64,000 bases of DNA from Patescibacteria group bacterium (GTDB lineage: Bacteria > Patescibacteriota > Minisyncoccia > Phycocordibacterales > PALSA-1337): the NCBI GenBank assembly GCA_038061795.1, contig JBBTYL010000002.1, positions 13,193-77,192 on the forward strand, read 5' to 3'. Numbering within the stretch: the stretch's first letter is position 1; each line of letters begins with the position of its first letter. This document shows, piece after piece, positions 34,425 to 46,756 of the stretch. Below the pieces are notes generated by a model, which saw only the letters and a program-made list of their open reading frames with translations, was not told where the DNA came from and made no database searches. A program made the translations under genes and the position numbers.

Positions 34425-34466
34425 TATCTACCCCGGCTTTATTTCTTAATTCGTGGAAGTTTTTGT

Positions 34467-35009
34467 CTAAATTATATTAACTGGGTATAGGAAGTCACTC
34501 TTCTCAATTTGAATTTTCTTAACAAACTTGGTTCCTTTTCCATCTTGATCTTTTTTTGAATATTGCCAGTTGCTATTAGCATCTTTTTCAAACTCTTCGG
34601 AATTTTCAATTAAATATACGTAACCCGTATCCCCAATAGTATCTTCTTCTGGGCCTTCTATCGTCAAAACAAGATTTGATCTATTATCAATCACATTCAT
34701 TGGGTAGCTTAAATTTTTTGCATTATTAAGATATATAGCCTTGAGTATGGCTATTGCGGGGTCACTGGAAGCAAATAACACGCCCCTCCCCTGTGAAGTT
34801 ATTTGTTCAGAAAAAGATAAGTTATTTCTTGATCCATGGAAAAGAAAGTTATATTTTTCAGATAAATAATCTAAAAAGTTTTCAGTTGTTATTCCTTGTT
34901 CTTTAAGCTTAGACAAATCTTCGAGGGTTATTTCTTCTTTATCCGAAAATAACATGTAGAATCTTTCTAAAATTTGCCGACTATCAATCTTTTCGTCAAA
35001 TTTTTCCAT
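34467..35009 (-). CDS. Hypothetical protein (AT-rich island, last gene)
   Basis: No recognisable motifs. Co-directional and tightly spaced with the island genes. Confidence 0.4.
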   Translation of the reverse strand: MEKFDEKIDSRQILERFYMLFSDKEEITLEDLSKLKEQGITTENFLDYLSEKYNFLFHGSRNNLSFSEQITSQGRGVLFASSDPAIAILKAIYLNNAKNLSYPMNVIDNRSNLVLTIEGPEEDTIGDTGYVYLIENSEEFEKDANSNWQYSKKDQDGKGTKFVKKIQIEKSDFLYPVNII

Positions 35010-35014
35010 AATAT

Positions 35015-35644
35015 CTAAAGTATACCAGAATTCTTCTCTATTTCTTTCAAAATAACCTGCATATCGGCCATTTTTTCAAAATCAATGTTCGTCCTGTCCA
35101 AAACTATTAATTTTCCAGGGATTTTATCCTTTGAAAAAGCTTTGTTATGCATTTCTTGGTTCAGGACGATGTATTCATCCGAATAGATCTTGCCTGAATC
35201 AAAGTCCCTTTTGCCAAACCTAAGAAAATTCCTGGTATTTTCGGGACTGTTCTGAAGCAAAATAACCAGATCAGGCAAGCCCAATGATTGAGCGTCTATT
35301 TCAAAAATATCCTGGCAGATTTCTCTTTCAAAACCTTCGGTGAGGATAGGGATGTATGGCTCCAAACTCATCCAGAAAGTATCCATAACGACAATCCTCC
35401 CTTCTTTCTTGAGTGTTTCAGCTCTCATGTGATCTTTCACCATCTTGTTCCTAAACCATAGCATCCTCTCAAGCGGCCTTATGTTTTCTTTAATATCTTC
35501 CTTGAGGCGTGGTGGGAAATCCGCCTCTTCCCCCTCCAAGAGGACTTCGGCGCCGTAGTGCTGCGCCAATTTTTTAGCAAGAAAAGACTTACCTGCGCGT
35601 GGCGCGCCGACGATTGCAATAATTTTACCCTGGAGGTTTTTCAT
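35015..35644 (-). CDS. Deoxynucleoside-kinase-like P-loop kinase
   Basis: Walker A IIAIVGAPRAGKS. C-terminal PDLVILLQNSPENTRNFLRFGKRDFDSG...EYIVLNQEMHNKAF parallels dNK/dCK/dGK PDLIIYLRTSPE...R..R.R.EE...YL..LHE.H. Confidence 0.55.
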   Translation of the reverse strand: MKNLQGKIIAIVGAPRAGKSFLAKKLAQHYGAEVLLEGEEADFPPRLKEDIKENIRPLERMLWFRNKMVKDHMRAETLKKEGRIVVMDTFWMSLEPYIPILTEGFEREICQDIFEIDAQSLGLPDLVILLQNSPENTRNFLRFGKRDFDSGKIYSDEYIVLNQEMHNKAFSKDKIPGKLIVLDRTNIDFEKMADMQVILKEIEKNSGIL

Positions 35645-35676
35645 AACGAAATCTCATTAATATATTTATATCAACA

Positions 35677-36222
35677 TTAGTCATCAAGATAATGCATCAT
35701 AATGTCGTACCCCTTCATCACATAATTATCCTTTTCAAGACCAAAGGTATTTTTTGCAAATTCGAACATTTTTTTCTGCATCTTTTCTCCATCCCCATCT
35801 TCGACCACTTGCTCTATTTCAATGAAGCTTCCCAGCCTTTCAACTTCATCAAGCGTAATTGTGTAATTCTTATACTTGGTCATCCGTCGCTTCTTCTTTA
35901 CCGTAACTCCAGGCAAATAATTGAACATCTTCATGATTGGAGCAATTTCTTCCGGATTATCTATCTGAATATTGTGCTCGATGCAATCCAATTCATTCTT
36001 AACTGGCTTCTTAACAGTAAAAGTATACTCGCCATTTTGAATCCTTAAGCGAGGATAAACCCATTCACCTATTTCTGGTTCGAACCATTTCACATCGTCC
36101 TTATGAATGAAATTCCTGTCTTCTTGAGTTTTCTGTTCAGAAATGACGCAACCCAATTCTTTCAGCTTGTTTTCAATTTGATCTAAATCAGGTGCCTTGA
36201 GTTTTATTTCGATTTCTCTCAT
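35677..36222 (-). CDS. CYTH-domain protein (triphosphate tunnel metalloenzyme, CyaB/ThTPase-like)
   Basis: N-terminal EIEIKLK motif, acidic residues patterned along beta strands. ~180 aa. Confidence 0.6.
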   Translation of the reverse strand: MREIEIKLKAPDLDQIENKLKELGCVISEQKTQEDRNFIHKDDVKWFEPEIGEWVYPRLRIQNGEYTFTVKKPVKNELDCIEHNIQIDNPEEIAPIMKMFNYLPGVTVKKKRRMTKYKNYTITLDEVERLGSFIEIEQVVEDGDGEKMQKKMFEFAKNTFGLEKDNYVMKGYDIMMHYLDD

Positions 36223-36223
36223 G

Positions 36224-37528
36224 TTATTTCTTCCAAAGCTTTAGATCTGTCGGTGTCGGTCGGGAGCCTTTCGGTGCGGCGGATCGATCTGTTTCTGACC
36301 TCGACTGCTTGCCAACAGTCCCATCGGGCCATATGTGATAACCCGGCATGCAAGCCATCACATCATGATGATCATCATCGCTCACACTACTTTTCATTGG
36401 TCCTGAATAAAATGATAGTCTAGCTCTTGTGTAATAAACCAAATCGAACTCTTTAGTGTATGCTTTTATCTTTTCAAGAAGTTCGGTCCATTTCGGATCC
36501 TGTGTATTGTCGAATAGAATCACTTGTAGACCAAGTTTTGCAAGTGTACGAATTGAATTTTTTATATCTTCGAGATAAGTCACGGAATCTTTTCTTACTC
36601 GAGCCTCATATTGATTAATACTCAACCTGATATCTGAAATGCAGTCTCTATTCATTTCAGCAATTTTCTCAGCGGCGATTTGTGCTATTTTATCCATAGC
36701 CGACCATCCTGCTGTTGTGATATGTAGAGGCCTTACTGGTGTAGCTAATAATCTCGCCACATCCCCGAAATCAGCAGGAGACCCGTCCTCATGGAGAAAA
36801 TTTCTATCCTTATAATCAAAGGGGTCGCTATCATAATAATTGGTGATTCTATCGAAAATTGATCCAAAATGTATGTCTTTATAGTCAACAGGCACGGCAT
36901 CTATAAAACCGGCAGTTGATGGCTGTCCGAAATCTTTTACTGTTTTCTCGAAAAACGCAACTGCCTGTGGCTTTAACTTTCGGTATATTTCAAGGAAAGG
37001 ATGTTTAGCAAATATTTCAGCAGCCTTTTTACTGATGAGATTTGTTTCATCAGAGAAACCCGCTTTCCCATTTTTTATATTTCTTATTTCTTCAATACTG
37101 CATCCTGTACCCTCTTCAAGATCTTTAAAATAATTTTCAACCAACTGCCTCATTTTCTCCTCTGCCTTATGTTTTTGTTCGGCACTTTTCACGATTGCTG
37201 GATATGGCATGGTCTGAACCGTTTCAGCCGCGCCAGCGGCGCAGAAAGTACACTTGTGACGACACCCTTTTGTCACTTGAATATTAGAAAGCTCCTCACC
37301 GAATATTTCCGCGAGTTTTTCTTCCGAAAGCTCTAGCCCCTTGAATAATTCAGGTCTTGGATTTTCAACGGTTGGAATGTCCTCCGTTCTTGCTGTACCG
37401 GTCTCAACCTCTTTTCTAAAAGCCTCTCCTTCTTCTGACAACGGATAAGGAATCTTTAAAAACTTTTCTCTTATTAAGCCTTCATTTCTTAATTCTTCAG
37501 GTGGGGATGTAAACTCAAATTTTTCCAT
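36224..37528 (-). CDS. Radical SAM enzyme of unknown specificity
   Basis: CxxxCxxC cluster motif TKGCRHKCTFCAAG at aa ~88-97. No additional Cys cluster, so a single 4Fe-4S. 434 aa. Confidence 0.65.
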   Translation of the reverse strand: MEKFEFTSPPEELRNEGLIREKFLKIPYPLSEEGEAFRKEVETGTARTEDIPTVENPRPELFKGLELSEEKLAEIFGEELSNIQVTKGCRHKCTFCAAGAAETVQTMPYPAIVKSAEQKHKAEEKMRQLVENYFKDLEEGTGCSIEEIRNIKNGKAGFSDETNLISKKAAEIFAKHPFLEIYRKLKPQAVAFFEKTVKDFGQPSTAGFIDAVPVDYKDIHFGSIFDRITNYYDSDPFDYKDRNFLHEDGSPADFGDVARLLATPVRPLHITTAGWSAMDKIAQIAAEKIAEMNRDCISDIRLSINQYEARVRKDSVTYLEDIKNSIRTLAKLGLQVILFDNTQDPKWTELLEKIKAYTKEFDLVYYTRARLSFYSGPMKSSVSDDDHHDVMACMPGYHIWPDGTVGKQSRSETDRSAAPKGSRPTPTDLKLWKK

Positions 37529-37654
37529 ACCAGAAGTATAGCAAATAAGAGAAACTTCGTCGGTGTGCCGTCTTAGAGGAAATTAGAACGATATTTGAGA
37601 AAAGGAATGATGCGACGATCTACATTCCAACATTTTACCCTGCATTTGAACACA

Positions 37655-38452
37655 CTATTCCAAATCAGAAAAAATAGGGTGTGCATCATTATCATCTATA
37701 GGTAGACTGCCTCTCAAATAGCCTTTCGTTTTACTGATGATTTCTTCTGCCGCCGACTTTTGCTCGGTGGTTATATTTTGTGGCAACGGTGTGTCGAGTA
37801 TTTGCTGAATAATTTCTCGCGCTCGAGTAAATTCTTTACCATATTTTCTTTCGACAGAGACCATGTGTCTATATAACCAAAGAACAACATTGCAGAGTGC
37901 TACCTTCCCGTCACGGATATAAAAGTCAGTGTCAACCAAATATATGTGCGGGACTTCATCACCCTTCTTTTTTCCATATACATATTGAGAGGCACTGTTT
38001 ATGTCAGCAAGATATAAACCACCTTCTTCTGGTAACTTATCTAAATAGTATTGAGCAATGCTTGCGTATAATTTTTCCACCTCTTCCGTTAGTTCAGGGG
38101 TAACTTCAATTTTATCCAGATCTGTACCATCAATTTTATCAACAATTGCATATATAACATCTTTGTCTTCGTCGCCTTTACCAATTATAAAATCGACTGG
38201 CGCATTGATGCCATATCTATCTTTCAATTCACTATATAATTTTTGTCCCAATTCCCCTATTACAACAGGGTCTACTTGACCTTTGTATCTTTCTTCCAAA
38301 TCCTCGAAACTCTCCATACGTACAATTTTGTCAGGATTATCTTTTATTTCAAAAATCTTGCCCCTGCCTTTATGGATTGGTGATATTTCACTTTCAATCA
38401 AATGGTCACTGAAATTTATTTCCTTATCGTGTTTTGGTTCTTGGTTTTCCAC
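37655..38452 (-). CDS. Hypothetical protein, possible small protein-kinase-like fold
   Basis: Gly-rich HKGRGKIFEI near the N-terminus and a YLVDTDFY (D-x-D-F) segment reminiscent of kinase-fold catalytic and DFG regions. Weak. Confidence 0.3.
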   Translation of the reverse strand: MENQEPKHDKEINFSDHLIESEISPIHKGRGKIFEIKDNPDKIVRMESFEDLEERYKGQVDPVVIGELGQKLYSELKDRYGINAPVDFIIGKGDEDKDVIYAIVDKIDGTDLDKIEVTPELTEEVEKLYASIAQYYLDKLPEEGGLYLADINSASQYVYGKKKGDEVPHIYLVDTDFYIRDGKVALCNVVLWLYRHMVSVERKYGKEFTRAREIIQQILDTPLPQNITTEQKSAAEEIISKTKGYLRGSLPIDDNDAHPIFSDLE

Positions 38453-38522
38453 ACCAAAAGTCTATCAGGTTAAAGCTGAAATTACTAACTGAAGTAAGGT
38501 TGTCTCGCTAAAAAATATCTGT

Positions 38523-38595
38523 GGGTGGCTAGAGAGAATCGGACTCTCGATACCGGTTCCACAAACCGGAGTTTTACCACTAAACTATAGCCACC
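38523..38595 (-). tRNA. tRNA-His (anticodon GTG) with G-1
   Basis: Reverse complement reads GGTGGCTATAGTTTAGTGGTAAAACTCCGGTTTGTGGAACCGGTATCGAGAGTCCGATTCTCTCTAGCCACC. Anticodon arm CCGGT-TTGTGGA-ACCGG, an extra 5' G pairing with C73, 5' sequence nearly identical to E. coli tRNA-His. Confidence 0.85.
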
Positions 38596-38601
38596 ATATA
38601 A

Positions 38602-39072
38602 TTAAAGGGTCTTGCCGTCATGTGCCAAATAATGGCAATTTCTGCATAACCACCTTAGATTATCTATCTTATTATTTTTTCTGTTTTGGTCAATATGATG
38701 AACCACCAAAACCTTGACGTTAGTTATATCACATTTTGAACAAATTGGCCTAATATTGTTCCTTAGCATGATCTTTCTATACGCATTTTCTCCTCCCTTC
38801 CAATTGCCATGATCCTCACCCGAAAGAATATGGGCATTCTTCCAAACAGCAAAACATGACTTATTGCAAAAGAATCTTCCACTTTTTGACCTTTTAATTT
38901 CAAGCTTGGTTCTATAAAAAGACTTTTTGCAAATTTCACACAAACGTAACTCCCCAGTCTTCATTCTTTCCGAGGAGCAAGCTTGGGAACAATACTTACC
39001 CCAGCCAATTTTAATATGGCTAGGTTTTGCATAAAAATCTTTTGTACAATTTACACAGTTTATCCAAGGCAT
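38602..39072 (-). CDS. HNH endonuclease with N-terminal Cys-rich zinc-ribbon repeats
   Basis: HNH motif VHHIDQNRKNNKIDNLRWLCRNCH. Multiple CxxC pairs upstream. Confidence 0.7.
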   Translation of the reverse strand: MPWINCVNCTKDFYAKPSHIKIGWGKYCSQACSSERMKTGELRLCEICKKSFYRTKLEIKRSKSGRFFCNKSCFAVWKNAHILSGEDHGNWKGGENAYRKIMLRNNIRPICSKCDITNVKVLVVHHIDQNRKNNKIDNLRWLCRNCHYLAHDGKTL

Positions 39073-39136
39073 TCAACCATTATAATTTAATTTATAAGTA
39101 TTGACAATGTAATTACAAATGCATTATACTGTCTGC

Positions 39137-39412
39137 ATGAATATACAAACAACACTGCAAATTAGGGTTGATGACTCTCTCAAAGAAAAAGCCTCTCAAG
39201 CCCTGAAGAGAATGGGGCTGGATCTCTCTTCTGGAATCAAGCTTTTTCTCAATGAAGTGGCCATGACCGAAACCATTCCCTTCTTACCATCAACTGAAAA
39301 AGGCAAAAAACTTCGGGGTTACGAAACATATAAAAAAGAAGCTGAATTTCTAAAAAAACATGGTAAAAGATTTACTTCTGGAAAAGAATTGATAGATGAT
39401 ATTTTAAAATAA
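39137..39412 (+). CDS. dinJ: RelB/DinJ-family type II antitoxin
   Basis: TLQIRVDDSLKEKASQALKRMGLDLSSGIKLFLNEV matches the DinJ ribbon-helix-helix N-terminus. Confidence 0.65.
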   Translation: MNIQTTLQIRVDDSLKEKASQALKRMGLDLSSGIKLFLNEVAMTETIPFLPSTEKGKKLRGYETYKKEAEFLKKHGKRFTSGKELIDDILK

Positions 39413-39455
39413 AAAAATTCATTAATTCTTCATCTCTGTATGTTACGGTAAAGGA

Positions 39456-39734
39456 ATGTACAGCATACTTTATTCAAGCAAATTCAGAAAACAATCAAAG
39501 AAAATAGTGGGGTCAGGCAAATATCCTCGAGAGAAGATCGAGTACATTATTAATATTCTTGCTTCTGGAATTCCTCTGGAACCTCACCTTAAAAACCACA
39601 AGTTGCATGGCAAATATAATGGCATGATGGAGTGTCATGTTATACCAAATATGCTTTTGGTTTATGAAAAGGATGAAGAAAAAAGATTAATAATCCTCAT
39701 GGCCCTCGGAAGCCATTCCGAATTATTCAAATAA
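39456..39734 (+). CDS. yafQ: YafQ/RelE-family type II toxin (mRNA interferase)
   Basis: HKLHGKYNGMMECHVIPNMLLVYEKDEEKRLIILMALGSHSELF matches the YafQ C-terminal signature (H..G...ECHI.PD.LLIY....L.L.R.GSHS.LF). Confidence 0.7.
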   Translation: MYSILYSSKFRKQSKKIVGSGKYPREKIEYIINILASGIPLEPHLKNHKLHGKYNGMMECHVIPNMLLVYEKDEEKRLIILMALGSHSELFK

Positions 39735-39888
39735 CTGTGCGGAGGGCTGGACGATGTTCGGGCCTATCGCTACAAAGCTGAACATGCAGCCGCACTCATA
39801 TACGCCCACTTCAGAAAGGAGTTCGGGATTCCGATCAGGAAACGAATTGTGAGACCAGCTAAGAATAGCAGGCGGAAAAATTCGCTGA
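39735..39888 (+). pseudogene. GC-rich start-less ORF fragment (~50 codons) ending ...FGIPIRKRIVRPAKNSRRKNSLKG; possible gene remnant
   Basis: Open frame without a start codon directly after the yafQ stop. Higher GC than surroundings. Confidence 0.2.
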
Positions 39889-39940
39889 AGGGGTAAAGGT
39901 TTGCCGAAAGCGGCAAGATTATTGAGATAAAGCTAAATCA

Positions 39941-40990
39941 CTAAATAACAAAAGCGACACTATACCTTGCCCTAGTCACCGCTACATACAATTTAGAGCG
40001 ATCTCCAACGTGATCAAGATTCCTAGATTTTAGATACGCTTTCATTGGGCCAGTAGGGAAAATCAAAACTCTGTCGTAATTTCTTCCCTTGGATGCTCCA
40101 ATATTAAATGCTGGCAAATTCATCGTATCACTCTGCTTATTCCATCTCAGCACTACTGGCTTGTAACTCTCAAAATATGTCGGCACTTCAGGTTTTTTGA
40201 TCATAAAAATGCCGTCATGCCCTGTCGTGGTCCCATTCATCGACTTCGTCTTATTAAAATCTGGGAACAACACATCCGCAAAATCACAAATTACCTGATT
40301 ACACCTGAATGAATCATTTTTTTCTTCCATAGTGATCAGGCCTGAGCCGCTATGCTGAAGAACCCAATCAAATATACCGCTTCTCTTAAATTTCTTATTT
40401 TTTCCAGAATTATTCGTACTAAAAGTCCCTTGCCGGGGATCACCCACCGCTGTGATTGGAAGTGCGGACTGAAAAAGCTTCTCAAGGAAAGTGAGGTCAT
40501 ATCCCGCCAAGTCTTGCACCTCATCAATGAAGATATGATCGTAAGCTTTTTCAAGTCTCCTAACAATCAACCCGCCGGAGCGCTCATCGCATGTACAGAC
40601 AAAATCAGAAACTCGATCCCGGTAAATATCTCCACTATTTGCTAGGTAATAGCGGTCAAGATTGTTCTTGGGAGCATATTTGGTCCCACTAGGCATATCC
40701 TTAAAAAGGATGGATGCGATCCGAGATTTTTCCGTCACGAAGCTTTGGTAAGGCCGGATGCCTTCCTGTAATAAAAAGCTGAACCATGATAACAGCACGA
40801 TGTGTTTTGGGACATGCCCGCACTTTTCAATTAGATAAGACCTGATCTGGTCCAAGTTCTCATGGGTGTATGTTGTTATCAGAATCCGCTTCCCGACCAA
40901 CGCAATAGCCTCCTCGACAATCATGGTTGTCTTCCTTGATCCAGCGCTCGCCACGACCACCTTGTTTTTAGCTGACGGCATCTTTGACAT
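39941..40990 (-). CDS. UvrD/Rep-like superfamily 1 helicase (short), GajB-like partner of the OLD-family ATPase
   Basis: Motif I ASAGSRKTT, motif II IFIDEVQD, motif VI YVAVTRAR. 23-nt overlap with the upstream OLD-family gene. Confidence 0.6.
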   Translation of the reverse strand: MSKMPSAKNKVVVASAGSRKTTMIVEEAIALVGKRILITTYTHENLDQIRSYLIEKCGHVPKHIVLLSWFSFLLQEGIRPYQSFVTEKSRIASILFKDMPSGTKYAPKNNLDRYYLANSGDIYRDRVSDFVCTCDERSGGLIVRRLEKAYDHIFIDEVQDLAGYDLTFLEKLFQSALPITAVGDPRQGTFSTNNSGKNKKFKRSGIFDWVLQHSGSGLITMEEKNDSFRCNQVICDFADVLFPDFNKTKSMNGTTTGHDGIFMIKKPEVPTYFESYKPVVLRWNKQSDTMNLPAFNIGASKGRNYDRVLIFPTGPMKAYLKSRNLDHVGDRSKLYVAVTRARYSVAFVI

Positions 40991-42563
40991 ACGCGGGAAA
41001 TTCTATCTTCTCGTTGGTCTCGAACAACGCGAGCGCGCATTCCGTCTTATTGGCGGTCATATAATCAACAAGTTCTGGTTTATCTTTGAAAGCCTTGCCA
41101 AAAACTTTATTTAACACGTCTAGCCCATTAACCTCTGCGATGTGAGGCTCCAGTGTTGTAAGGGCATTGTTCTTATCGGCGCACACTTTGATTGAGCCGA
41201 AAGCAGAATATGGTGTGTATTTTTTCTCAACCTTATTCTCATAATCGCCATCATTATCAGTTACAACTGCGACGGTGTTTGAAAGCTCTTTTGCAATATC
41301 AAGGAACCGGGCAAAAGAAAGTCCCCGAACGCTTATGACATCAACACCTGCTTCAATCGGCAACTTTCCGTGTTTCACCAGGAAAGCTTTTTGAACAATC
41401 AATTCGTCAGACGGCCCTTCAACTAAAATGGCCTTCTTTGCCAAAATGAGGCGCAGGGTATCATATCCAGAAAGTTTTTTGAAGTAATCCTGCGTATCTG
41501 GAGGCAGTTTGCTCAAATTTGAATGCTTCGCTTCATGAAGGAAAATCACCTTGTCGATACCAAGCTTATTTAAAACGTATGCGCTGTGTGTCACGATCAC
41601 GATCTGTTTCCCAGCACATTTTTCCCGTATCTTTTTAATGAGTGTACTCATCGAGGAAAACGAGAGATGGTTCTCAGGCTCTTCAATAAGAATGACATTC
41701 GACTCCTTTGCTTGCCGCTCAAGTGCGAGCATGATTTTGAGGGCGCTCTGTTCTCCCTTACCAATGAACTGGAATGGCAATTCATCTAAATGAGGAATCA
41801 GGGAGTTTTCCCAATTTGTCTTTTGCGAAGTGTCGATGGAAATTGCGAGCTTCTTGGTCGTTATCGCGCCCTGGTTTTGGGTCAGTTTTGCATTGATACC
41901 AACAATTGCGTCCTCAGCTGAAAACTGCTCTTTCAGTTTTCTGTAAGCAATCGCCAGCGAAACCTTCTCTTTTGCATCAAGGCTGCCGTTGATTATTTCT
42001 TGAAGGAAATAATCAGTCCCACTTTGTAGACGGATTGTGGTCGCATCGATATTGGAAATGGCAACCGGCAGACTACGAGGTGTTATCGCGTTATTTGCAA
42101 ATGAATACCAGTGAACCTTGTAGTACTCGGTTGGAATGGTTTTTATTTGCTCCCTTGCTTCAAGCAGCTTGGAATATTCATCCGCATACTCGTCATCAAA
42201 CGAGATCACCAATTTCAATCCAACGTAGTCCGTCTTCTGTGAATTATTGTTTCCTCGCAAGTATTGCAACTCTGCCAATTCCTCAAGATACAGTTCAATT
42301 ACTATCTCCGGCGGAACTGGATTGCCTCCACCAGCTACCTCTTTCAAATACGCGTCGATAGAGGCCTTGTTGAACAAGTGGGAAGAGAGCTCATATTCAA
42401 TCGCTTTGCCGTTGAGTCTTTTGGTCAGCACTAATGCTATTGCTTCAAGGATGGTTGACTTACCTGCCTCGTTGTTTCCAACGATAATGTTCAAATCCTT
42501 ATTAAGGGATAGGGTAAAAGCTTGGAACAGCTTGAAGTTTTTAATGTAAATTTGATTTATCAT
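40968..42563 (-). CDS. OLD-family ABC-type ATPase with C-terminal TOPRIM nuclease domain (GajA-like)
   Basis: Walker A GNNEAGKST, Walker B IILIEEPENHLS, H-loop VIVTHS. C-terminal TOPRIM ILVEGPSDE ... VTDNDGD. Confidence 0.7.
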   Translation of the reverse strand: MINQIYIKNFKLFQAFTLSLNKDLNIIVGNNEAGKSTILEAIALVLTKRLNGKAIEYELSSHLFNKASIDAYLKEVAGGGNPVPPEIVIELYLEELAELQYLRGNNNSQKTDYVGLKLVISFDDEYADEYSKLLEAREQIKTIPTEYYKVHWYSFANNAITPRSLPVAISNIDATTIRLQSGTDYFLQEIINGSLDAKEKVSLAIAYRKLKEQFSAEDAIVGINAKLTQNQGAITTKKLAISIDTSQKTNWENSLIPHLDELPFQFIGKGEQSALKIMLALERQAKESNVILIEEPENHLSFSSMSTLIKKIREKCAGKQIVIVTHSAYVLNKLGIDKVIFLHEAKHSNLSKLPPDTQDYFKKLSGYDTLRLILAKKAILVEGPSDELIVQKAFLVKHGKLPIEAGVDVISVRGLSFARFLDIAKELSNTVAVVTDNDGDYENKVEKKYTPYSAFGSIKVCADKNNALTTLEPHIAEVNGLDVLNKVFGKAFKDKPELVDYMTANKTECALALFETNEKIEFPAYVKDAVS

Positions 42564-42799
42564 AATTGGGGGAGTGTTCGCTCTTCGGCAAAAAGTTAAG
42601 TCTTCTGAAGTGACATATTATTTGAATCACTACCCAGATGCTTCTGTGGGAATGAGTCAATCGTACGCCGATAGCAACTTCGAGTCAACGCACGCGCGTT
42701 GTTATGATTTAGTTGGTCCTTTATCAACCAATAAAATCATCATGAAATCATATTTCGCATACATCCGCGTCTCAACAGCGCGACAAGGAGAGGAAGACC

Positions 42800-43152
42800 A
42801 TTTGGATTTCTCTTCACCTTGGATCTTTACGACTGTAAAGCGGGTGTTTGTGACGACATCGCCCTTTGCTACGACTTTCTGGAAAAGTTGGTGGATGAGC
42901 TTCAGATGCAAAAACAATCGCCGCCGTTTATTTTCCGTAGCGACGGGAACAAGTATCCCGAAAAGGCGGGCCTTAGTGGATGGGTTCCGCTGATTGAAAG
43001 CGGCATTCAGATCCACACACTTTCAGCTAAAAACTTTATTTCGATCGACATCTATTCCTGCGGCCCGTTCCGTACAGAACGGCTGGCGGAATTTGTGCGC
43101 ACTTTTTTTGAGCCCGGGGATATTGAGACCAATCTTATTCCGCGCGGGAAAA
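42800..43152 (+). repeat. 353-bp perfect direct repeat, copy A (matches 44028-44380)
   Basis: Sequence from ACCATTTGGATTTCTCTTCACC through AATCTTATTCCGCGCGG is identical in both copies. Confidence 0.85.
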
Positions 43153-43184
43153 AATACCATTGTCGGATGACTGATGCGAAATAA
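42800..43184 (+). pseudogene. speH: S-adenosylmethionine decarboxylase (SpeH, pyruvoyl type) copy 1; N-terminus and start codon unclear, divergent C-terminus
   Basis: FGFLFTLDLYDC ... GWVPLIESGIQIHT ... IDIYSCG SpeH motifs. No in-frame ATG/GTG upstream; only a TTG inside the first strand. C-terminus differs from copy 2. Confidence 0.45.
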
Positions 43185-43644
43185 GCCTAAGCAGAGCTTG
43201 CTAATCTCTATTCGCGGCCCCGTTGAAGCGATTGTGGTCGCAAAAGGGGCCGCTGACATTGCGGATGTTAAATATGCTGCCTCTACCCATGGGGATCCCT
43301 ATTGCTGTCACCTGTTTCTTAGGCATGATTTCGCGGATTTGAGGTAATGGCTCAGTTTGAAGATTCACCCACTTGTAAGCGGTATTCCAAGTGGGTGTTC
43401 CCATCCGAGGATGAGGCTGCCATATTTCAGGCATCGTTTGCCACATCGTTCCGGTTTCCCCTATTTACTTTCCCGCTAGGGCACGGCTCGGTGTGGTTAT
43501 CTTCTGCGTAGCTACTGGCATCATTTTAATCACGCTCTTGCGAGGGTGAACCGGCGCTCGGACCAGAAGTTTTTCCGTGAGTTCAAAAATTTGGCTAACA
43601 TATCATCAGCCTCCTTTCTGGCCATCACGGCCATTTGTATGGCA

Positions 43645-43891
43645 TCAGTAAATGGATTGTTCTTCAAGAAGATTAATAATCTCTTCCAAGCTCCAAACGT
43701 GATCTGTGAGTCCGGCGGCCATTGCGGGGGTTATGCGCAACGATTGATGAATGCGCCCGAAGTTGTAGAACATATAACGTAATGAACTGCGATGGAATGC
43801 TCGTGGTCTCAACCTTCTTGGAGAATCCGTTTGTGAGCCGCGTGAACCGGCGCATTGACATACGCTCACAAGTTCGCCAGTGACATTTCAA
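43645..43891 (-). mobile_element. IS1595-family (ISXO2-like) transposase C-terminal remnant, frameshifted
   Basis: Two overlapping minus frames carry RFTRLTNGFSKKVE and YNFGRIHQSLRITPAMAAGLTDHVWSLEEI, both hallmarks of the IS1595/ISXO2 transposase C-terminus. The N-terminal ~220 aa and the inverted repeats are absent. Confidence 0.6.
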
Positions 43892-43998
43892 ACTGAGCCA
43901 CTACCGGATTTGAGCGTGCATTGCGGTAAGGCGTGATACGTGGTAAGATTTGCTTACTCGTCAATAATGCTTCTGGGTACGTTGACGAATTAATTGTC

Positions 43999-44421
43999 GT
44001 GGAGGCATACAATAACGCGCAAAAACCATTTGGATTTCTCTTCACCTTGGATCTTTACGACTGTAAAGCGGGTGTTTGTGACGACATCGCCCTTTGCTAC
44101 GACTTTCTGGAAAAGTTGGTGGATGAGCTTCAGATGCAAAAACAATCGCCGCCGTTTATTTTCCGTAGCGACGGGAACAAGTATCCCGAAAAGGCGGGCC
44201 TTAGTGGATGGGTTCCGCTGATTGAAAGCGGCATTCAGATCCACACACTTTCAGCTAAAAACTTTATTTCGATCGACATCTATTCCTGCGGCCCGTTCCG
44301 TACAGAACGGCTGGCGGAATTTGTGCGCACTTTTTTTGAGCCCGGGGATATTGAGACCAATCTTATTCCGCGCGGAACTAAATATCACCACTCTTTTGCC
44401 GCAGATGAGCCCATAATTTAG
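43999..44421 (+). CDS. speH: S-adenosylmethionine decarboxylase proenzyme (SpeH), likely functional copy, GTG start
   Basis: Full beta-strand 1 (KPFGFLFTLDLYDCK) aligning with T. maritima KSLGRHLVAEFYEC. ES (Ser) pyruvoyl cleavage site in ESGIQIHT. Confidence 0.65.
   Translation: MEAYNNAQKPFGFLFTLDLYDCKAGVCDDIALCYDFLEKLVDELQMQKQSPPFIFRSDGNKYPEKAGLSGWVPLIESGIQIHTLSAKNFISIDIYSCGPFRTERLAEFVRTFFEPGDIETNLIPRGTKYHHSFAADEPII
44028..44380 (+). repeat. 353-bp perfect direct repeat, copy B (matches 42800-43152)
   Basis: Identical to copy A. The two copies are 1228 bp apart and flank an IS remnant. Confidence 0.85.
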
Positions 44422-44565
44422 GAAATGCGGGGGAACAACGAATTCTGTTCCGATTGTCATTTCGCGGGTTAAAATCCCCACCTCTGAGACGTTGGGTTCA
44501 AAACATTTTTGCTTCTTCGATCAAAAAAAGCCCCTCGCGATAAATCGAGAGGGGTTGTGCTGATG

Positions 44566-45159
44566 TCAGCCGAACGACAACTCCTGTTGTCCAAGCGAAA
44601 CTTTGATGCGTTCCACCTCGGTAGGCTTGGGCGGTTCGCCTTGTTCCAAAGCCTCGGGTGATTGGATGCGGAGTGCGAGCGGCAGCCACGGTGCGATGTA
44701 ATGGATATTTGACCATGCGGCCCAATACTCATTGGACAACGCATTGCCGTGCATGACCCGGGTGGGGATGCCCCACAGGGTCGTGTTGATGAACGCCATG
44801 TCACAGGCCGTGCGGCTAATATCAATGGCGGTGACGCGCAGGCGTCTGCGGATTTCAGGCGGACACGCTTCCGCCACTGACAGAATCATCGCCCCTGCGC
44901 CGCAGGCAGGCTCACAGATGAGTATAGGCCCTTCGGCGGGCCATGATTCCGTGTCTCCCATGAGCATTTGTGCCATCATATCGCAGATGTTCTTCGGCGT
45001 GTGGAACTCGCCGTTCCATTGTTGTCCCTTCTGAGACAGAGCGGATTCCATATAGTATCCGCCAATCAAGTCCTCAAAGGGATGTATTTCCATTTCGGCA
45101 TCCCTGCCACGGTTGGCGCCAGGAAGCGCAGTTCCGGCCCCCCTGCTGATAAAGGCCAC
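44566..45159 (-). pseudogene. N6-adenine DNA methyltransferase fragment (HsdM-like), GC-rich
   Basis: Motif X-like GEFHTPKNICDMMAQML, motif I ICEPACGAGAM, LWGI...HGNAL, but no NPPF/Y motif IV and only 197 aa. Confidence 0.5.
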
Positions 45160-45223
45160 CTCCCATTGCTCGCGCAGAAGGCACAGGGACTGTTGCAGGT
45201 CTTGGAGTACGGGTGACGCCCCA

Positions 45224-46036
45224 TCAACAAACCGGAATTGTGTATGGTCCTGAATGGAAGATGGCGTGCGAGCAATCCATTCTAAGAAATTCGAGTCGTC
45301 TTGGCGGGGGGCGCTCCTTGATGATCAAGGTCGCCAAGGCGACCCGAATTCCTTTACCCACAGCAAAAAACTGCCCAGCCCTCCCTGGCTGGGATGATGG
45401 ATGGTTGGCGTATCGAACCAAATCGGCAGTGCAGTGCAATTGCAGTTTGCCCAAGATATTCTTGCGGTGTGTTTCCACCGTGCCGAGGCTGATTCCCAAA
45501 GTTTCGGCGGTTTCCTTGTTCGTTTTTCCTTCGGCGAGCAATTGTACTATCTGACGTTCGCGTGGCGTTAATCTAAAACGCTGCATGCCGCCGATTGGGA
45601 GCGCTGTTGTCGCGCGGAGGTTTTGCCCGTTTACGTTGTTTGAGATTTTGGGCGTGAGGAAGTTTTTGCCGGAAGCCAAAGCTTCAATTGCTATGGGGAG
45701 CAGTTCCGCGGCGTCACTCTTGAGCAAATAACCGCACGCGCCAGCTTTCAGGACTTCATCAGCAAGGGATTCCGAGTCGTGCATGGTGAGAATCAACACT
45801 TTGGTCCGGGGCGATTCCGCTTTCAGGATGCGGGTGGCGTCCAGGCCATTCAATTCAGGCATGGAGATGTCCAAGATGGCGATGTCGGGTTTGAGTGTGT
45901 GCACGAGTTCGAGCGCGGTGCGGCCATTGGCAGCCTCGCCACACAGTTCCCATGTCGTCTGGCTGTCAATTACGCTTTTAACGCCTTGCCGAATCATGCT
46001 GTGGTCATCGGCAATGATGATGCGAAGATTTTTCAC
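45224..46036 (-). CDS. NarL/FixJ-family response regulator (REC plus LuxR HTH), GC-rich
   Basis: IIADDHSMIRQG...LDISMPELNG receiver. LTPRERQIVQLLAEGKTNKETAETLGISLGTVETHRKNILGKL LuxR HTH. Confidence 0.8.
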   Translation of the reverse strand: MKNLRIIIADDHSMIRQGVKSVIDSQTTWELCGEAANGRTALELVHTLKPDIAILDISMPELNGLDATRILKAESPRTKVLILTMHDSESLADEVLKAGACGYLLKSDAAELLPIAIEALASGKNFLTPKISNNVNGQNLRATTALPIGGMQRFRLTPRERQIVQLLAEGKTNKETAETLGISLGTVETHRKNILGKLQLHCTADLVRYANHPSSQPGRAGQFFAVGKGIRVALATLIIKERPPPRRLEFLRMDCSHAIFHSGPYTIPVC

Positions 46037-46045
46037 GTGAGATTA

Positions 46046-46300
46046 TTCATTTGGTTGGGAGCAGTCTGGGGGGAATCCTCTGGCGAAAGGGGTACTGAGG
46101 CGAGCACTGTGACGCCTTCTGAATCTGATTCCACGTTGAGGTCGCCCCCCACCAAGGCCAGCCGCTCCTGCATGGCTGCCAGGCCAACGCCGGATTTTCG
46201 CAGGAACTTGGTGTCGGACGTAGCGGGTTGCGTCGGGAGGCCGTGTCCGAAGTCTTGAACTTCAACGCGGACCTCCTGGTGGTCACGGGCGAGCCGGATG
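46046..46300 (-). pseudogene. Histidine kinase C-terminal (HATPase_c) fragment, NarX-type, translationally abutting the NarL-like gene
   Basis: Minus-strand translation IRLARDHQEVRVEVQDFGHGLP...GVGLAAMQERLALVGGDLNVESDSEGVTVLASVPL. No intact upstream ORF. Confidence 0.5.
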
Positions 46301-46570
46301 TCCGATGAGGAATACAGCCTCCAGCGGACGGCCTTATTGGAGGAGAAACGCGGATTGGAAAAGTCGCTTCAGGGCGTCGGCCAACAAGTCGAAACTTGTT
46401 TGCAGCAGTCCGAACAAGCGCTTGAATTCGCCTGTGCGGTCCGGCAGCAGTTCACCAAGGGCGATTTTGCGACGAAGAAAGAGATCGTTGCGACCATTGG
46501 ATCGAACCTAACCCTGAAAGACAAAATCCTCATAGTTGAAGCCCGGAAACCGTTTTATCTGCTCGAAACT
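46298..46570 (+). pseudogene. Possible C-terminal fragment of a serine recombinase (coiled-coil tail)
   Basis: DEEYSLQRTALLEEKRGLEKSL...KKEIVATIGSNLTLKDKILIVEARKPF resembles large serine recombinase C-termini. Lacks a catalytic domain. The ORF tail runs antisense through tRNA-Leu. Confidence 0.3.
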
Positions 46571-46672
46571 TCCCTCTGCCATGCCGAAGGTCAGAACGAG
46601 CCAATCGAACCTGAAAATACCGTTGCGACACAGGGACAAAAAGAGGCTTGCGCCTCTTCTTGTCCAAGTCTG

Positions 46673-46756
46673 TGCCCAGGAGAGGACTCGAACCTCCACG
46701 CCCGTAAGGGCTTATCCACCTCAAGGATAAATGTCTACCAGTTTCAACACCTGGGC
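46673..46756 (-). tRNA. tRNA-Leu (anticodon GAG), class II
   Basis: Reverse complement GCCCAGGTG...TGGTAGACA...TATCC-TTGAGGT-GGATA... with a long variable arm, T-arm GGAGG-TTCGAGT-CCTCT, discriminator A. Confidence 0.85.

What the first reader, a model, noticed from the sequence alone, without database searches (positions are those of the whole stretch)
38602..42563. Defence cluster on the other side of tRNA-His: HNH endonuclease, DinJ/YafQ toxin-antitoxin and a Gabija-like OLD-ATPase/TOPRIM plus UvrD-like helicase pair
Seen in sequence: 40968-42563 encodes an ABC-type ATPase (Walker A GNNEAGKST, Walker B IILIEEPENHLS, H-loop VIVTHS) with a C-terminal TOPRIM (ILVEGPSDE ... VTDNDGD). This is the OLD-family architecture. 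It overlaps by 23 nt a 349-aa SF1 helicase (motifs ASAGSRKTT, IFIDEVQD, YVAVTRAR). Established: class-2 OLD nucleases paired with UvrD-like helicases constitute the Gabija anti-phage system (GajA/GajB). Next to them sit an HNH endonuclease with zinc ribbons and a DinJ/YafQ-type TA pair. Inference: a functional anti-phage island. The helicase is ~30% shorter than typical GajB, so this may be a minimal Gabija variant.
Basis: partly seen in the sequence, partly recalled or inferred. Interest (0 to 1): 0.55.

Follow-up and report, generated by a model that had tools for sequence, protein, structure and literature searches.

The report
Compact Gabija defence cassette in tRNA island
This stretch of a groundwater Patescibacteria genome holds an intact two-gene Gabija-type anti-phage system of a compact, already catalogued subfamily, plus a toxin-antitoxin pair and a small HNH nuclease, all sitting in an 8-kb piece of foreign DNA wedged between two tRNA genes; it is a well-supported but ordinary finding.

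Summary
The five ORFs and all quoted motifs are present at the stated coordinates; only one residue was mis-transcribed. The 531-aa protein is an OLD-family ABC-ATPase/TOPRIM nuclease. It matches PADLOC GajA model PDLC00102 full length (E=2.7e-211), and its best structural match is B. cereus GajA. The 349-aa protein is a complete SF1 motor and matches PADLOC GajB model PDLC00148 full length (E=1.6e-118).

The short helicase is not a truncation. It belongs to a large clade of 318-369 aa proteins that keep subdomains 1A, 1B and 2A but lack 2B. In 80 of 80 genomes examined, across many phyla, an OLD gene lies directly upstream of it. The overlap is exactly 23 nt in 44 of those 80. The same compact pair is found on about 1,750 sequenced plasmids, including E. 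coli and Klebsiella IncF plasmids.

In relatives of this genome, tRNA-Leu and tRNA-His lie 61-1,348 nt apart. Here they are 8,077 nt apart, so the cluster is an accessory island. The HNH gene and the RelB/YafQ pair are real, but they are never linked to the Gabija pair elsewhere.

Verdict: this is a new member of a known kind. Anti-phage function is inferred. I found no experimental study of this 2B-less clade.

The parts
38523..38594 (-). tRNA-His(GTG), the left boundary of the inserted island
   Evidence: Found by ARAGORN and by Rfam (64.4 bits). In relatives it lies 61-1,348 nt from tRNA-Leu.
38602..39072 (-). Small stand-alone HNH endonuclease of 156 aa, with two N-terminal CxxC...C...C zinc-ribbon-like repeats and a C-terminal CxxC...HH...N...CxxCH beta-beta-alpha-Me motif
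   Evidence: Pfam HNH_3 1.4e-5, 25.0 bits against a cut-off of 24.8. PADLOC homing-endonuclease model 8.1e-7 and ZorE 6.9e-6. The motif is read directly from the translation. The gene is absent next to the Gabija pair in 80 other loci and absent from relatives of this genome.
39119..39412 (+). RelB/DinJ-family antitoxin
   Evidence: Pfam RelB 2.7e-10. TIGR02384 scores 62.8 bits against a cut-off of 45.65. NCBI names it RelB/DinJ family antitoxin.
39456..39734 (+). YafQ/RelE-family mRNA-interferase toxin
   Evidence: Pfam YafQ_toxin 8.6e-25, matched full length. TIGR02385 RelE_StbE scores 59 bits against a cut-off of 27.9. TIGR00053 YafQ scores 63.7 bits, below its cut-off of 87.25.
39750..39940 (-). 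3' flank of the cassette, conserved only with the nearest relatives. It includes a 6-bp hairpin, TTGCCG-CTTT-CGGCAA, at 39916-39901.
   Evidence: blastn homology to L007/L008 (74.7%) runs over window 39750-42566. The alignment shows the hairpin kept in L007 with one compensatory change. No T-run follows it, and the terminator scan did not flag it.
39941..40990 (-). gajB of the compact clade: a 349-aa SF1A (UvrD/Rep/PcrA-like) motor with subdomains 1A, 1B and 2A but no 2B
   Evidence: PADLOC GajB PDLC00148 1.6e-118, residues 8-348 on profile positions 2-352 of 369. Motifs I, Ia, II, III, IV, V and VI are invariant in 28 homologues. The AF2 model has pLDDT 89.6. Foldseek top hits are Rep, B. cereus GajB, PcrA and UvrD. 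From motif III to motif V there are 107 residues here against 309 in Rep.
40968..40990 (-). 23-nt overlap between the gajA stop and the gajB start, suggesting translational coupling
   Evidence: Coordinates. The ORFs overlap in 74 of 80 loci from many phyla, and the overlap is exactly 23 nt in 44 of 80.
40968..42563 (-). gajA of the compact clade: a 531-aa OLD-family nuclease with an ABC ATPase carrying a helical insert (about residues 176-270), a TOPRIM domain (about 375-465) and a short C-terminal helical domain (471-530)
   Evidence: PADLOC GajA PDLC00102 2.7e-211, full length. Pfam OLD-like_TOPRIM and AAA_15. The best PDB sequence hit is B. cereus GajA at 5e-10. Foldseek top hits are GajA 8u7i/8sm3 at 1e-19 to 1e-18, followed by TsOLD. 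K35, H326, E382, D386, D436, D438, T470, E472 and K506 are invariant in 26 homologues.
42564..46671 (.). The rest of the inserted segment. It holds a duplicated AdoMet-decarboxylase gene (exact 354-nt repeat 42794-43147 / 44022-44375), an IS1-family transposase remnant (43343-43905), a truncated N6 DNA methylase (44566-45159) and a GC-rich LuxR-type response regulator (45224-46036).
   Evidence: GC is 0.477 for 42564-44500 and 0.554 for 44500-46600, against a backbone of about 0.45.
46672..46756 (-). tRNA-Leu(GAG), the right boundary of the inserted island
   Evidence: Found by ARAGORN. In relatives it is directly followed by tRNA-His.

Best explanation
Positions 39941-42563 carry an intact two-gene Gabija cassette (gajA then gajB, translationally coupled) of a compact subfamily. 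GajA is a 531-aa OLD-family ABC-ATPase/TOPRIM nuclease. GajB is a 349-aa UvrD-like SF1 motor that naturally lacks the 2B subdomain.

By analogy with B. cereus Gabija, the likely mechanism is as follows; it is inferred, not shown here. GajA oligomerises through its ATPase and helical insert, and GajB docks onto it through its retained 1B subdomain. Physiological (d)NTP bound to the ATPase keeps the TOPRIM two-metal nuclease silent. During phage replication the nuclease nicks or cleaves DNA. GajB is then stimulated by DNA ends and burns (d)ATP/(d)GTP, which further releases GajA. The outcome is destruction of phage DNA and/or abortive infection.

The cassette arrived by horizontal transfer into an 8.1-kb mosaic island between tRNA-Leu and tRNA-His of a Patescibacteria genome. 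The neighbouring RelB/DinJ-YafQ module and the HNH nuclease are separate, independently acquired cargo.
For: Identity of the proteins:
- Both proteins match PADLOC GajA and GajB models full length.
- Pfam finds OLD-like_TOPRIM plus AAA_15, and UvrD-helicase.
- The fold of the 531-aa protein is closest to B. cereus GajA, then TsOLD.
- The fold of the 349-aa protein is closest to Rep, GajB, PcrA and UvrD.

Intactness:
- The ATPase residues K35 and H326 are invariant across 26 homologues.
- So is the full two-metal set E382/D386/D436/D438/T470/E472 plus K506. This set maps onto BpOLD E400/E404/D455/D457/T506/E508/K562 (PMC6755086) and onto B. cereus GajA E379/E383/D432/D434/D511/D513/K541 (PMC10822852).
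- All SF1 motifs of the helicase are invariant across 28 homologues.

Obligate pairing:
- A GajA homologue lies directly upstream on the same strand in 80 of 80 GTDB loci.
- The ORFs overlap in 74 of 80 loci, by exactly 23 nt in 44 of 80.
- Identities of the two proteins co-vary, r=0.89, n=69.
- The same arrangement is seen in loci L001-L008.

Mobility and island status:
- Neighbours differ in every locus: relaxase/T4CP, type I R-M, SIR2+HerA, HEPN/NTase, serine recombinases.
- About 1,715-1,791 PLSDB plasmids carry the pair.
- DNA homology to the nearest cassette stops 3 nt upstream of the gajA ATG.
- In relatives the tRNA-Leu/tRNA-His gap is 61, 96, 1,264 or 1,348 nt, against 8,077 nt here.

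Mechanistic analogy: PMC8136825, PMC10781630, PMC10681800, PMC10822852 and PMC10568477.
Against: No experiment exists for this clade that I could find.

Sequence similarity to the characterised B. cereus proteins is low. GajA reaches only E=5e-10, over the C-terminal half. GajB has no PDB sequence hit, and a family profile finds PcrA, Rep and UvrD but not B. cereus GajB.

Two features of canonical Gabija are missing. The 2B subdomain of GajB is absent. About 45 residues between the DxD motif and the metal-B helix of GajA are also absent: D438 to T470 is 32 residues, against 77 in B. cereus GajA.

The helical insert of the ATPase, which forms the dimerisation domain in GajA and TsOLD, is modelled with pLDDT below 55. 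Oligomerisation is therefore untested.

No convincing promoter or terminator was found.

The enrichment on conjugative plasmids leaves open the possibility that the natural target is other mobile elements rather than phages.
Confidence: 0.85

Rival explanations
1. The compact OLD/helicase pair is a functional conflict system, but its main target is other mobile DNA (incoming plasmids or conjugative elements) or plasmid maintenance, not phages. Under this reading 'Gabija' is only a homology label.
For: About 1,100 of roughly 1,750 matching plasmids are conjugative. These include 658 Escherichia and 784-819 Klebsiella plasmids. In E. coli IncFIB/IncFII the pair sits beside vapBC. Several chromosomal copies lie beside relaxase, T4CP and recombinase genes. 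No phage-challenge data for this clade were found.
Against: Defence systems in general are carried on plasmids and integrative elements, so the location does not discriminate between the two readings. Other copies sit next to classical anti-phage genes, namely type I R-M, SIR2-HerA and nSTAND. The catalytic machinery is the same as in phage-tested Gabija.
Confidence: 0.1
2. The pair is a housekeeping DNA-repair module (an OLD nuclease working with a UvrD-like helicase) that belongs to the core genome of this lineage.
For: UvrD-like helicases and TOPRIM nucleases do act in repair. NCBI annotates the genes only generically, as 'AAA family ATPase' and 'UvrD-helicase domain-containing protein'.
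Against: Four relatives of this genome lack the pair at the locus, where tRNA-Leu and tRNA-His are adjacent. The closest homologues (GajA 76-87% identical) are in Verrucomicrobiota MAGs and on an unrelated contig carrying mobile-element genes. The distribution is patchy across more than 15 phyla and on plasmids.
Confidence: 0.02
3. The cassette is a decaying remnant. The short helicase would be a truncated GajB and the system would be inactive, like the fragmented genes immediately to its right.
For: The adjacent DNA holds a truncated methylase, an IS1 remnant and a duplicated gene fragment. The helicase is 29% shorter than B. cereus GajB.
Against: The length is typical of the family: 318-369 aa for the best 120 helicase homologues and 529-538 aa for nearly all listed OLD homologues. 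Both proteins align end to end with their PADLOC profiles. All catalytic and motor motifs are intact. An independent assembly has the same genes at 99.86% DNA identity.
Confidence: 0.03

Closest known systems
Bacillus cereus VD045 Gabija (GajA 578 aa / GajB 494 aa; PDB 8SM3, 8U7I, 8X5I, 8TK1)
   Same: The gene order is the same, with an OLD-family ABC-ATPase/TOPRIM gene followed by a UvrD-like SF1 gene. It is the top structural match for the 531-aa protein and among the top matches for the helicase. The Walker A lysine has the same number (K35), the H-loop histidine is present, and the TOPRIM set E/(E or D)/DxD/(D or T)x(D or E)/K is conserved (PMC10822852). The 1B subdomain, which carries the GajA-binding surface in B. 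cereus (PMC10781630), is retained and highly conserved.
   Different: Sequence relationship is weak: GajA E=5e-10 over residues 217-446 only, and GajB undetectable by sequence. GajB lacks the 2B subdomain, which spans residues 306-416 in B. cereus GajB (PMC10822852). GajA is 47 aa shorter, and almost all of the difference lies between the DxD motif and the metal-B helix. Complex stoichiometry, site specificity and nucleotide control are untested here.
Class 2 OLD nucleases BpOLD/XccOLD (PDB 6NK8; Schiltz 2019, PMC6755086)
   Same: A helicase gene lies immediately downstream. The T-x-E metal-B motif sits at the start of a C-terminal helical domain, and a catalytic lysine sits in a later helix (T470/E472/K506 here, T506/E508/K562 in BpOLD).
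   Different: The second metal-B acid is Asp (D386), as in class 1 TsOLD (D381), rather than Glu. The protein has class 1 length (531 aa; the TsOLD chain is 528 aa) and not the roughly 50 extra residues given as typical of class 2.
Class 1 OLD (Thermus scotoductus OLD, PDB 6P74; phage P2 Old)
   Same: Overall size, the ABC ATPase with a helical insert, and the TOPRIM domain. It is the fifth-best structural match, E=6e-16.
   Different: Class 1 genes stand alone, lack the C-terminal helical domain and use Arg in place of the catalytic Lys (PMC7049728). Here a helicase partner is present in 80 of 80 loci, and an invariant Lys lies in a predicted five-helix C-terminal domain.
Uncharacterised 'AAA family ATPase + helicase UvrD' pair of enterobacterial IncF plasmids (e.g. 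NZ_AP027792.1: WP_001128474.1 521 aa / WP_000361402.1 340 aa)
   Same: It hits the same PADLOC models best (PDLC00102 6.5e-102; PDLC00148 1.9e-47). The sizes are equally compact, the genes overlap, and a type II toxin-antitoxin pair (vapBC) sits next door.
   Different: The helicase is only about 27% identical to the one here. The setting is a conjugative virulence or resistance plasmid rather than a chromosomal tRNA island.
E. coli Rep lacking 2B (engineered RepΔ2B; recalled from Brendza et al. 2005 PNAS, not checked here)
   Same: Both are SF1A motors consisting of 1A/1B/2A only. The engineered protein keeps ATPase and translocase activity and is a better monomeric helicase, so loss of 2B is compatible with an active motor.
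   Different: That protein is an artificial deletion in a repair and replication helicase. Here the 2B-less state is natural, family-wide and coupled to a nuclease partner.

Membership tests
Gabija (GajA/GajB = class 2 OLD + UvrD-like helicase) | GajA has an N-terminal ABC-type ATPase with Walker A, Walker B, a signature-like motif and an H-loop | tested here: met
   Pfam AAA_15, AAA_21 and SMC_N. G29/G34/K35/S36, E294/E295, G268/G270/Q272 and H326 are invariant in 26 homologues. The fold matches GajA, TsOLD, Rad50 and RecF heads.
Gabija (GajA/GajB = class 2 OLD + UvrD-like helicase) | A helical dimerisation domain is inserted in the ATPase; it drives GajA tetramer formation | tested here: inconclusive
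   A helical insert is predicted at about 176-270 (helices 182-191, 197-215, 218-229), but pLDDT is only 32-55. Oligomeric state cannot be tested with these tools.
Gabija (GajA/GajB = class 2 OLD + UvrD-like helicase) | A C-terminal TOPRIM domain carries the two-metal set (Glu, acid at +4, DxD, T/D-x-E/D) and a catalytic Lys | tested here: met
   Pfam OLD-like_TOPRIM 2.7e-13. E382, D386, D436, D438, T470, E472 and K506 are all invariant. They were mapped to the residues listed in PMC6755086 and PMC10822852. The second acid is Asp rather than Glu.
Gabija (GajA/GajB = class 2 OLD + UvrD-like helicase) | Class 2 proteins have a C-terminal helical domain following the TOPRIM core | tested here: met
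   The AF2 model shows five helices at 471-530 with pLDDT 90-95. E472 lies at the start of the first helix and K506 at the start of the fourth. The domain is more compact than in BpOLD.
Gabija (GajA/GajB = class 2 OLD + UvrD-like helicase) | Class 2 OLD proteins are on average about 50 aa longer than class 1 | tested here: not met
   The protein is 531 aa, and nearly all listed homologues are 529-538 aa. TsOLD (class 1) is 528 aa and B. cereus GajA is 578 aa. This is a statistical trait of the class, not a functional requirement.
Gabija (GajA/GajB = class 2 OLD + UvrD-like helicase) | [quoted passage not shown] | tested here: met
   The genes overlap by 23 nt here. The same arrangement is found in 80 of 80 GTDB loci and in L001-L011.
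Gabija (GajA/GajB = class 2 OLD + UvrD-like helicase) | GajB has the four-subdomain SF1A architecture 1A/1B/2A/2B | tested here: not met
   Subdomain 2B is absent. Motif IV (R229/Q232) to motif V (G298/K301/G302) spans only about 65 residues. Motif III to motif V is 107 residues, against 309 in Rep. PADLOC profiles of 500 or more positions align only up to query residue 247-256 and again from 288. The model shows no extra domain. Subdomains 1A, 1B and 2A and motifs I-VI are present.
Gabija (GajA/GajB = class 2 OLD + UvrD-like helicase) | Both proteins are recognised by dedicated defence-system profiles | tested here: met
   PADLOC-DB GajA PDLC00102 and PDLC00098 (2.7e-211, 7.4e-201). PADLOC-DB GajB PDLC00148 and PDLC00140 (1.6e-118, 9.2e-112). 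All are full length. The DefenseFinder models could not be run.
Gabija (GajA/GajB = class 2 OLD + UvrD-like helicase) | The system shows a 4:4 GajA:GajB complex, nucleotide-inhibited DNA cleavage and protection against phage | not testable with these tools
   This needs biochemistry and phage challenge. No paper on this clade was found.
Type II toxin-antitoxin, RelB/DinJ-YafQ (RelE superfamily) | A small antitoxin gene lies directly upstream of a small toxin gene on the same strand, and both pass family thresholds | tested here: met
   The gap is 43 nt. RelB PF04221 scores 40.5 against a cut-off of 22.4. TIGR02384 scores 62.8 against 45.65. YafQ_toxin PF15738 scores 87.3 against 30. TIGR02385 scores 59 against 27.9. 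The YafQ equivalog TIGR00053 scores 63.7, below its cut-off of 87.25, so 'YafQ-like RelE-family' is the safe name.
HNH endonuclease (beta-beta-alpha-Me) | An HH...N...H catalytic motif is framed by two CxxC zinc ligand pairs | tested here: met
   The motif C111-x2-C114 ... H124-H125 ... N132/N137 ... C143-x2-C146-H147 ... H151 was read from the translation. Pfam HNH_3 scores 25.0 against a cut-off of 24.8. Pfam HNH scores 20.9, below its cut-off of 21.4. This is marginal by profile but clear by motif.
Septu (PtuA ATPase + PtuB HNH), considered because an HNH gene lies near an AAA_15/21 ATPase | A PtuA-type ATPase without TOPRIM sits directly adjacent to its HNH partner | tested here: not met
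   The NCBIfam PtuA match covers only residues 2-47 and scores 53 bits against a cut-off of 500. The ATPase carries a fused TOPRIM domain. The HNH gene is separated from it by three genes and is absent from all 80 related loci.
PARIS (AriA/AriB), considered because AriA models were hit | The ABC ATPase and the TOPRIM nuclease are encoded as separate proteins | tested here: not met
   ATPase and TOPRIM are fused in one 531-aa protein. The AriA hits (2.5e-22) are far weaker than the GajA hits (2.7e-211).

The most novel reading that the evidence does not exclude
The compact clade (OLD nuclease of about 530 aa plus 2B-less helicase of about 345 aa) may be a mechanistically distinct Gabija subtype that nobody has characterised. 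It lacks the 2B subdomain that gates DNA binding in SF1A helicases, and it lacks about 45 residues of the GajA TOPRIM region. It may therefore assemble, sense or target differently from B. cereus Gabija, for example by acting on conjugative or plasmid DNA. Its presence on about 1,750 sequenced plasmids, including E. coli and Klebsiella IncF virulence and resistance plasmids, would make that clinically relevant. The Patescibacteria copy would then be one intact, easily synthesised representative.
Probability: 0.2. Interest if true: 0.5.

Novelty: new member of a known kind. Interest (0 to 1): 0.25.

Why it matters
For this genome, it shows that an ultra-small groundwater Patescibacterium keeps an intact abortive-infection-type system. 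The system and other foreign genes sit in a hotspot between two tRNA genes, and the system was apparently exchanged with Verrucomicrobiota and other phyla. This fits published reports that CPR genomes have few defence systems but a high density of them (PMC12259885).

More generally, the check makes explicit that a large and widely disseminated part of what annotation tools call 'Gabija' is a compact form whose helicase has no 2B subdomain. All structural and biochemical knowledge of Gabija comes from the long form. A test of the compact form would therefore show which parts of the current mechanism are general.

Tried and rejected
Sequence and structure searches:
- The helicase against PDB sequences gave no hit at E<=0.01.
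- A 28-sequence family profile against PDB found PcrA, Rep and UvrD at 2e-5 to 2e-3, but not B. cereus GajB. The 'GajB' label therefore rests on PADLOC models, gene context and fold, not on direct sequence similarity to the characterised protein.

Literature: searches for any study of a short or 2B-less Gabija, or of the IncF plasmid pair, found nothing specific.

Signals around the genes:
- Promoter-like sites are no more frequent than in shuffled sequence (9 found, 10.1 expected), and no terminator was flagged for the cassette.
- Divergent 11/12 matches between the HNH and relB genes are noted but not significant.
- Rfam found only the tRNAs.

Integration mechanism: I looked for att-like direct repeats of tRNA-His or tRNA-Leu and for an integrase in the 8.1-kb insert. 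None was found, so how the segment was inserted is unknown.

Links and alternative classifications:
- A functional link between the HNH or RelB/YafQ genes and the Gabija pair is rejected, because they co-occur in 0 of 80 related loci.
- Septu, PARIS and class 1 OLD were considered and rejected (see the membership tests).
- The truncation or pseudogene reading is rejected on family length and intact motifs.

Full report
OBSERVATION

- HNH, 38602-39072(-), 156 aa
- RelB/DinJ, 39119-39412(+), 97 aa
- YafQ, 39456-39734(+), 92 aa
- helicase, 39941-40990(-), 349 aa
- ATPase-TOPRIM, 40968-42563(-), 531 aa

The last two overlap by 23 nt. tRNA-His(GTG) lies at 38523-38594(-). All quoted motifs are present. 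The only slip is that Walker B reads VILIEEPENHLS, not IILIEEPENHLS.

WHAT THE PROTEINS ARE

The 531-aa protein:
- Pfam finds AAA_15 (1.8e-20), SMC_N and OLD-like_TOPRIM (2.7e-13).
- PADLOC-DB gives full-length matches to GajA models PDLC00102 (2.7e-211, profile of 532 positions) and PDLC00098.

The 349-aa protein:
- Pfam finds UvrD-helicase (1.8e-11), Viral_helicase1 and AAA_19.
- PADLOC-DB gives full-length matches to GajB models PDLC00148 (1.6e-118, profile of 369 positions) and PDLC00140.

So the compact sizes are built into existing defence-system profiles.

The relationship to the characterised B. cereus proteins is distant:
- GajA is the best PDB sequence hit, but only at 5e-10.
- The helicase has no PDB sequence hit.
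- A 28-sequence profile of the helicase finds PcrA, Rep and UvrD rather than GajB.

Fold comparison closes that gap. The AF2 model of the OLD protein (pLDDT 78.8, TOPRIM region 80-95) matches B. cereus GajA best (E 2.6e-19 to 1e-17). TsOLD and the retron-Eco8 OLD follow. The helicase model (pLDDT 89.6) matches Rep, B. cereus GajB (8tk1_F), PcrA and UvrD.

INTACTNESS

In a 26-sequence alignment the following GajA residues are invariant:
- Walker A: G29/G34/K35/S36
- E294/E295
- signature-like motif: G268/G270/Q272
- H-loop: H326
- TOPRIM set: E382, D386, D436, D438, T470, E472 and K506

The TOPRIM set corresponds to BpOLD E400/E404/D455/D457/T506/E508/K562 (PMC6755086). It also corresponds to B. 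cereus GajA E379/E383/D432/D434/D511/D513/K541 (PMC10822852).

In the helicase, motifs I (A14/A16/G17/K20/T21), Ia, II (D156/E157/Q159/D160), III (D184/R186/Q187), IV (R229/Q232), V (G298/K301/G302) and VI (T339/R340/A341) are invariant in 28 sequences.

WHICH PARTS ARE MISSING

B. cereus GajB consists of 1A (1-72, 157-223), 1B (73-156), 2A (224-305, 417-494) and 2B (306-416) (PMC10822852). The evidence that 2B is absent here, while 1A, 1B and a slightly trimmed 2A remain, is as follows:
- About 81 residues lie between motif Ia and motif II, the size of a 1B subdomain.
- Only about 65 residues lie between motif IV and motif V.
- Against Rep, motif III to motif V spans 107 residues here and 309 in Rep.
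- PADLOC profiles of 500 or more positions align collinearly only up to query residue 247-256 and resume from 288.
- The model shows no extra domain.

The 1B region carries invariant W69/L73/G77/P80/Y81. In B. cereus Gabija, 1B is the surface that binds GajA (PMC10781630).

GajA is 47 aa shorter than B. cereus GajA. The difference lies between the DxD motif and the metal-B helix, which are 32 residues apart here against 77 in B. cereus GajA. A five-helix C-terminal domain carrying K506 is retained. That domain is a class 2 feature, and class 1 TsOLD lacks it (PMC7049728).

THE PAIR IS AN OBLIGATE, MOBILE TWO-GENE UNIT

The best 120 helicase homologues are all 318-369 aa. The listed OLD homologues are nearly all 529-538 aa.

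A scan of one genome per GTDB species confirmed 461 relatives among the first 600 pattern matches. The 80 best come from Verrucomicrobiota, Patescibacteria, Planctomycetota, Desulfobacterota, many Streptomyces, Bacteroidota, Proteobacteria, Nitrospirota and others. In those 80 loci:
- All 80 have a GajA homologue directly upstream on the same strand.
- The ORFs overlap in 74, and by exactly 23 nt in 44.
- The identities of the two proteins to the window's proteins co-vary, r=0.89, n=69.

Neighbours differ from locus to locus. They include relaxase/T4CP/serine recombinase, type I R-M, SIR2+HerA-like, HEPN/NTase and nSTAND genes.

tblastn finds the pair on 1,715-1,791 PLSDB plasmids, about 1,100 of them conjugative. 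These include about 658 Escherichia and 784-819 Klebsiella plasmids. On an E. coli IncFIB/IncFII plasmid the 521-aa and 340-aa genes sit beside vapBC and iutA, and they hit the same PADLOC models.

DNA homology between the window and the nearest cassette (L007/L008, 74.7%) covers only 39750-42566. It starts 3 nt upstream of the gajA ATG.

ISLAND STATUS

The window comes from a Patescibacteria MAG. NCBI proteins MEK7463692-699 carry generic names. An independent Hainich groundwater contig covers the same five genes at 99.86% DNA identity.

Relatives were found through ribosomal protein L19. They keep the order RluA-L19-tRNA-Leu(GAG)-tRNA-His(GTG), and the distance between the two tRNAs is:
- 61 nt in L093
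- 96 nt in L104
- 1,348 nt in L094, with one cobalamin-adenosyltransferase-like ORF between
- 1,264 nt in L092, with the same kind of ORF between

In the window the two tRNAs are 8,077 nt apart. The whole 38595-46671 segment is therefore inserted.

The segment is a compositional mosaic:
- HNH and toxin-antitoxin genes: 34% GC
- gajBA: 43% GC
- 44.5-46.6 kb: 55% GC
- backbone: about 45% GC

It also contains a duplicated AdoMet-decarboxylase gene, an IS1 remnant, a truncated methylase and a LuxR-type regulator. No integrase gene or att-like repeat was found.

The HNH, RelB and YafQ genes have no homologues near the pair in any of the 80 other loci. They have none in the relatives of this genome either. 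They are separate cargo.

MECHANISM (INFERRED)

The following comes from the B. cereus work:
- GajA is a TOPRIM nicking or cleaving enzyme held off by nucleotide binding to its ATPase domain (PMC8136825).
- GajA tetramerises, and GajB docks through 1A/1B onto the GajA ATPase (PMC10781630, PMC10822852).
- GajB shows no unwinding activity but hydrolyses (d)ATP/(d)GTP when stimulated by DNA ends. This drives nucleotide depletion and abortive infection (PMC10568477, PMC10681800).

All residues needed for these steps are conserved here, and 1B is retained, so the same scheme is the most likely one.

The missing 2B is compatible with this scheme. 2B is flexible and unresolved in several Gabija maps (PMC10822852). 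It already lacks the gating helix and GIG motif in B. cereus GajB (PMC10681800). From memory, an engineered Rep lacking 2B remains an active motor.

What is shown here is identity, intactness, obligate pairing, mobility and island status. What is inferred is complex formation, nucleotide control and anti-phage activity.

COMPARISON AND NOVELTY

The locus meets the defining features of Gabija, i.e. a class 2 OLD system:
- the OLD architecture
- the catalytic residue set
- the C-terminal helical domain
- a helicase gene immediately downstream
- recognition by dedicated profiles

It fails two descriptive features: the class 2 length and the four-subdomain GajB architecture. It is best filed as a member of a compact, already catalogued but experimentally unstudied Gabija subfamily.

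Defence systems in groundwater CPR bacteria are documented (PMC12259885). The finding is therefore well supported but ordinary. Its residual interest is that the compact clade is very widespread, including on clinical plasmids, and that no mechanistic study of it turned up in my searches.

Noticed in passing
window 42794-43147 and 44022-44375: There is an exact 354-nt direct repeat with 1,228-nt spacing. It duplicates most of an S-adenosylmethionine decarboxylase gene. The full copy is at 43933-44421 and an N-terminally truncated copy is at 42819-43184. An independent assembly's contig (L009) ends inside the repeat, at window position 42851, so this is either a recent duplication or an assembly problem.
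   Followed up: partly
window 43343-43905: A 563-nt piece is bounded by 26-nt imperfect inverted repeats (43343-43368 / 43880-43905). It lies between the two repeat copies. It encodes the C-terminal remnant of an IS1-family transposase (ORF 43645-43869(-); tblastn to annotated IS1 transposases at 5e-10). It has no Pfam or NCBIfam hit.
   Followed up: partly
window 44500-46600: This segment is 55% GC in a genome of about 45% GC. It holds a truncated N6 DNA methylase (44566-45159(-), matching only positions 17-131 of the 311-position Pfam profile) and an intact LuxR/NarL-type response regulator (45224-46036(-)) with no nearby kinase. It is probably foreign DNA from a GC-richer donor; a chimeric assembly is not excluded.
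   Followed up: no
window 31994-38522 (left of tRNA-His): The other side of tRNA-His is also variable. In relative L104, tRNA-His is followed directly by the homologue of the gene at 31094-31993. In L093, no homologue of this stretch is found and the homologue of 30084-30656 lies about 2.3 kb past tRNA-His. So the M23 peptidase, the PKD-repeat protein and the low-GC (38%) five-gene cluster 34467-38452 appear to be inserted too. That cluster encodes AAA_28 kinase-like, CYTH and radical-SAM-like proteins plus two proteins with no family hit.
   Followed up: partly
window 39750-39940; L007 11044-11241: About 190 nt downstream of gajB is conserved (about 75%) only with the nearest relative cassette. 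It includes a 6-bp hairpin (39916-39901) that L007 keeps with a compensatory change. On the opposite strand it holds a 32-aa ORF (39754-39852), which one gene caller annotated. It may be a terminator plus a remnant of a former neighbouring gene.
   Followed up: partly
L012, L013, L058/L001 (Verrucomicrobiota MAGs); protein cluster of window 43933-44421: Among taxonomically labelled genomes, the closest GajA relatives of this Patescibacteria copy (76-80% identity) are Verrucomicrobiota MAGs. An 87%-identical copy sits on an unclassified contig (L007/L008). The neighbouring AdoMet decarboxylase falls in a >=90%-identity cluster with a Verrucomicrobiota protein seen on 15 contigs. This hints at recent exchange between the two phyla.
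   Followed up: no
L010 (E. coli plasmid NZ_AP027792.1, 69885-72457): ColV-type IncFIB/IncFII plasmids carry the same compact OLD/helicase pair (521 aa and 340 aa, overlapping) between vapBC and the aerobactin receptor gene iutA. About 658 Escherichia and about 800 Klebsiella plasmids in PLSDB have a relative. I found no paper addressing its function.
   Followed up: partly
window 39079-39130: Two divergent sigma-70-like sites, each an 11/12 match, overlap in the 46-nt spacer between the HNH and relB genes. The overall count of such sites in the region is not above the shuffled expectation.
   Followed up: no
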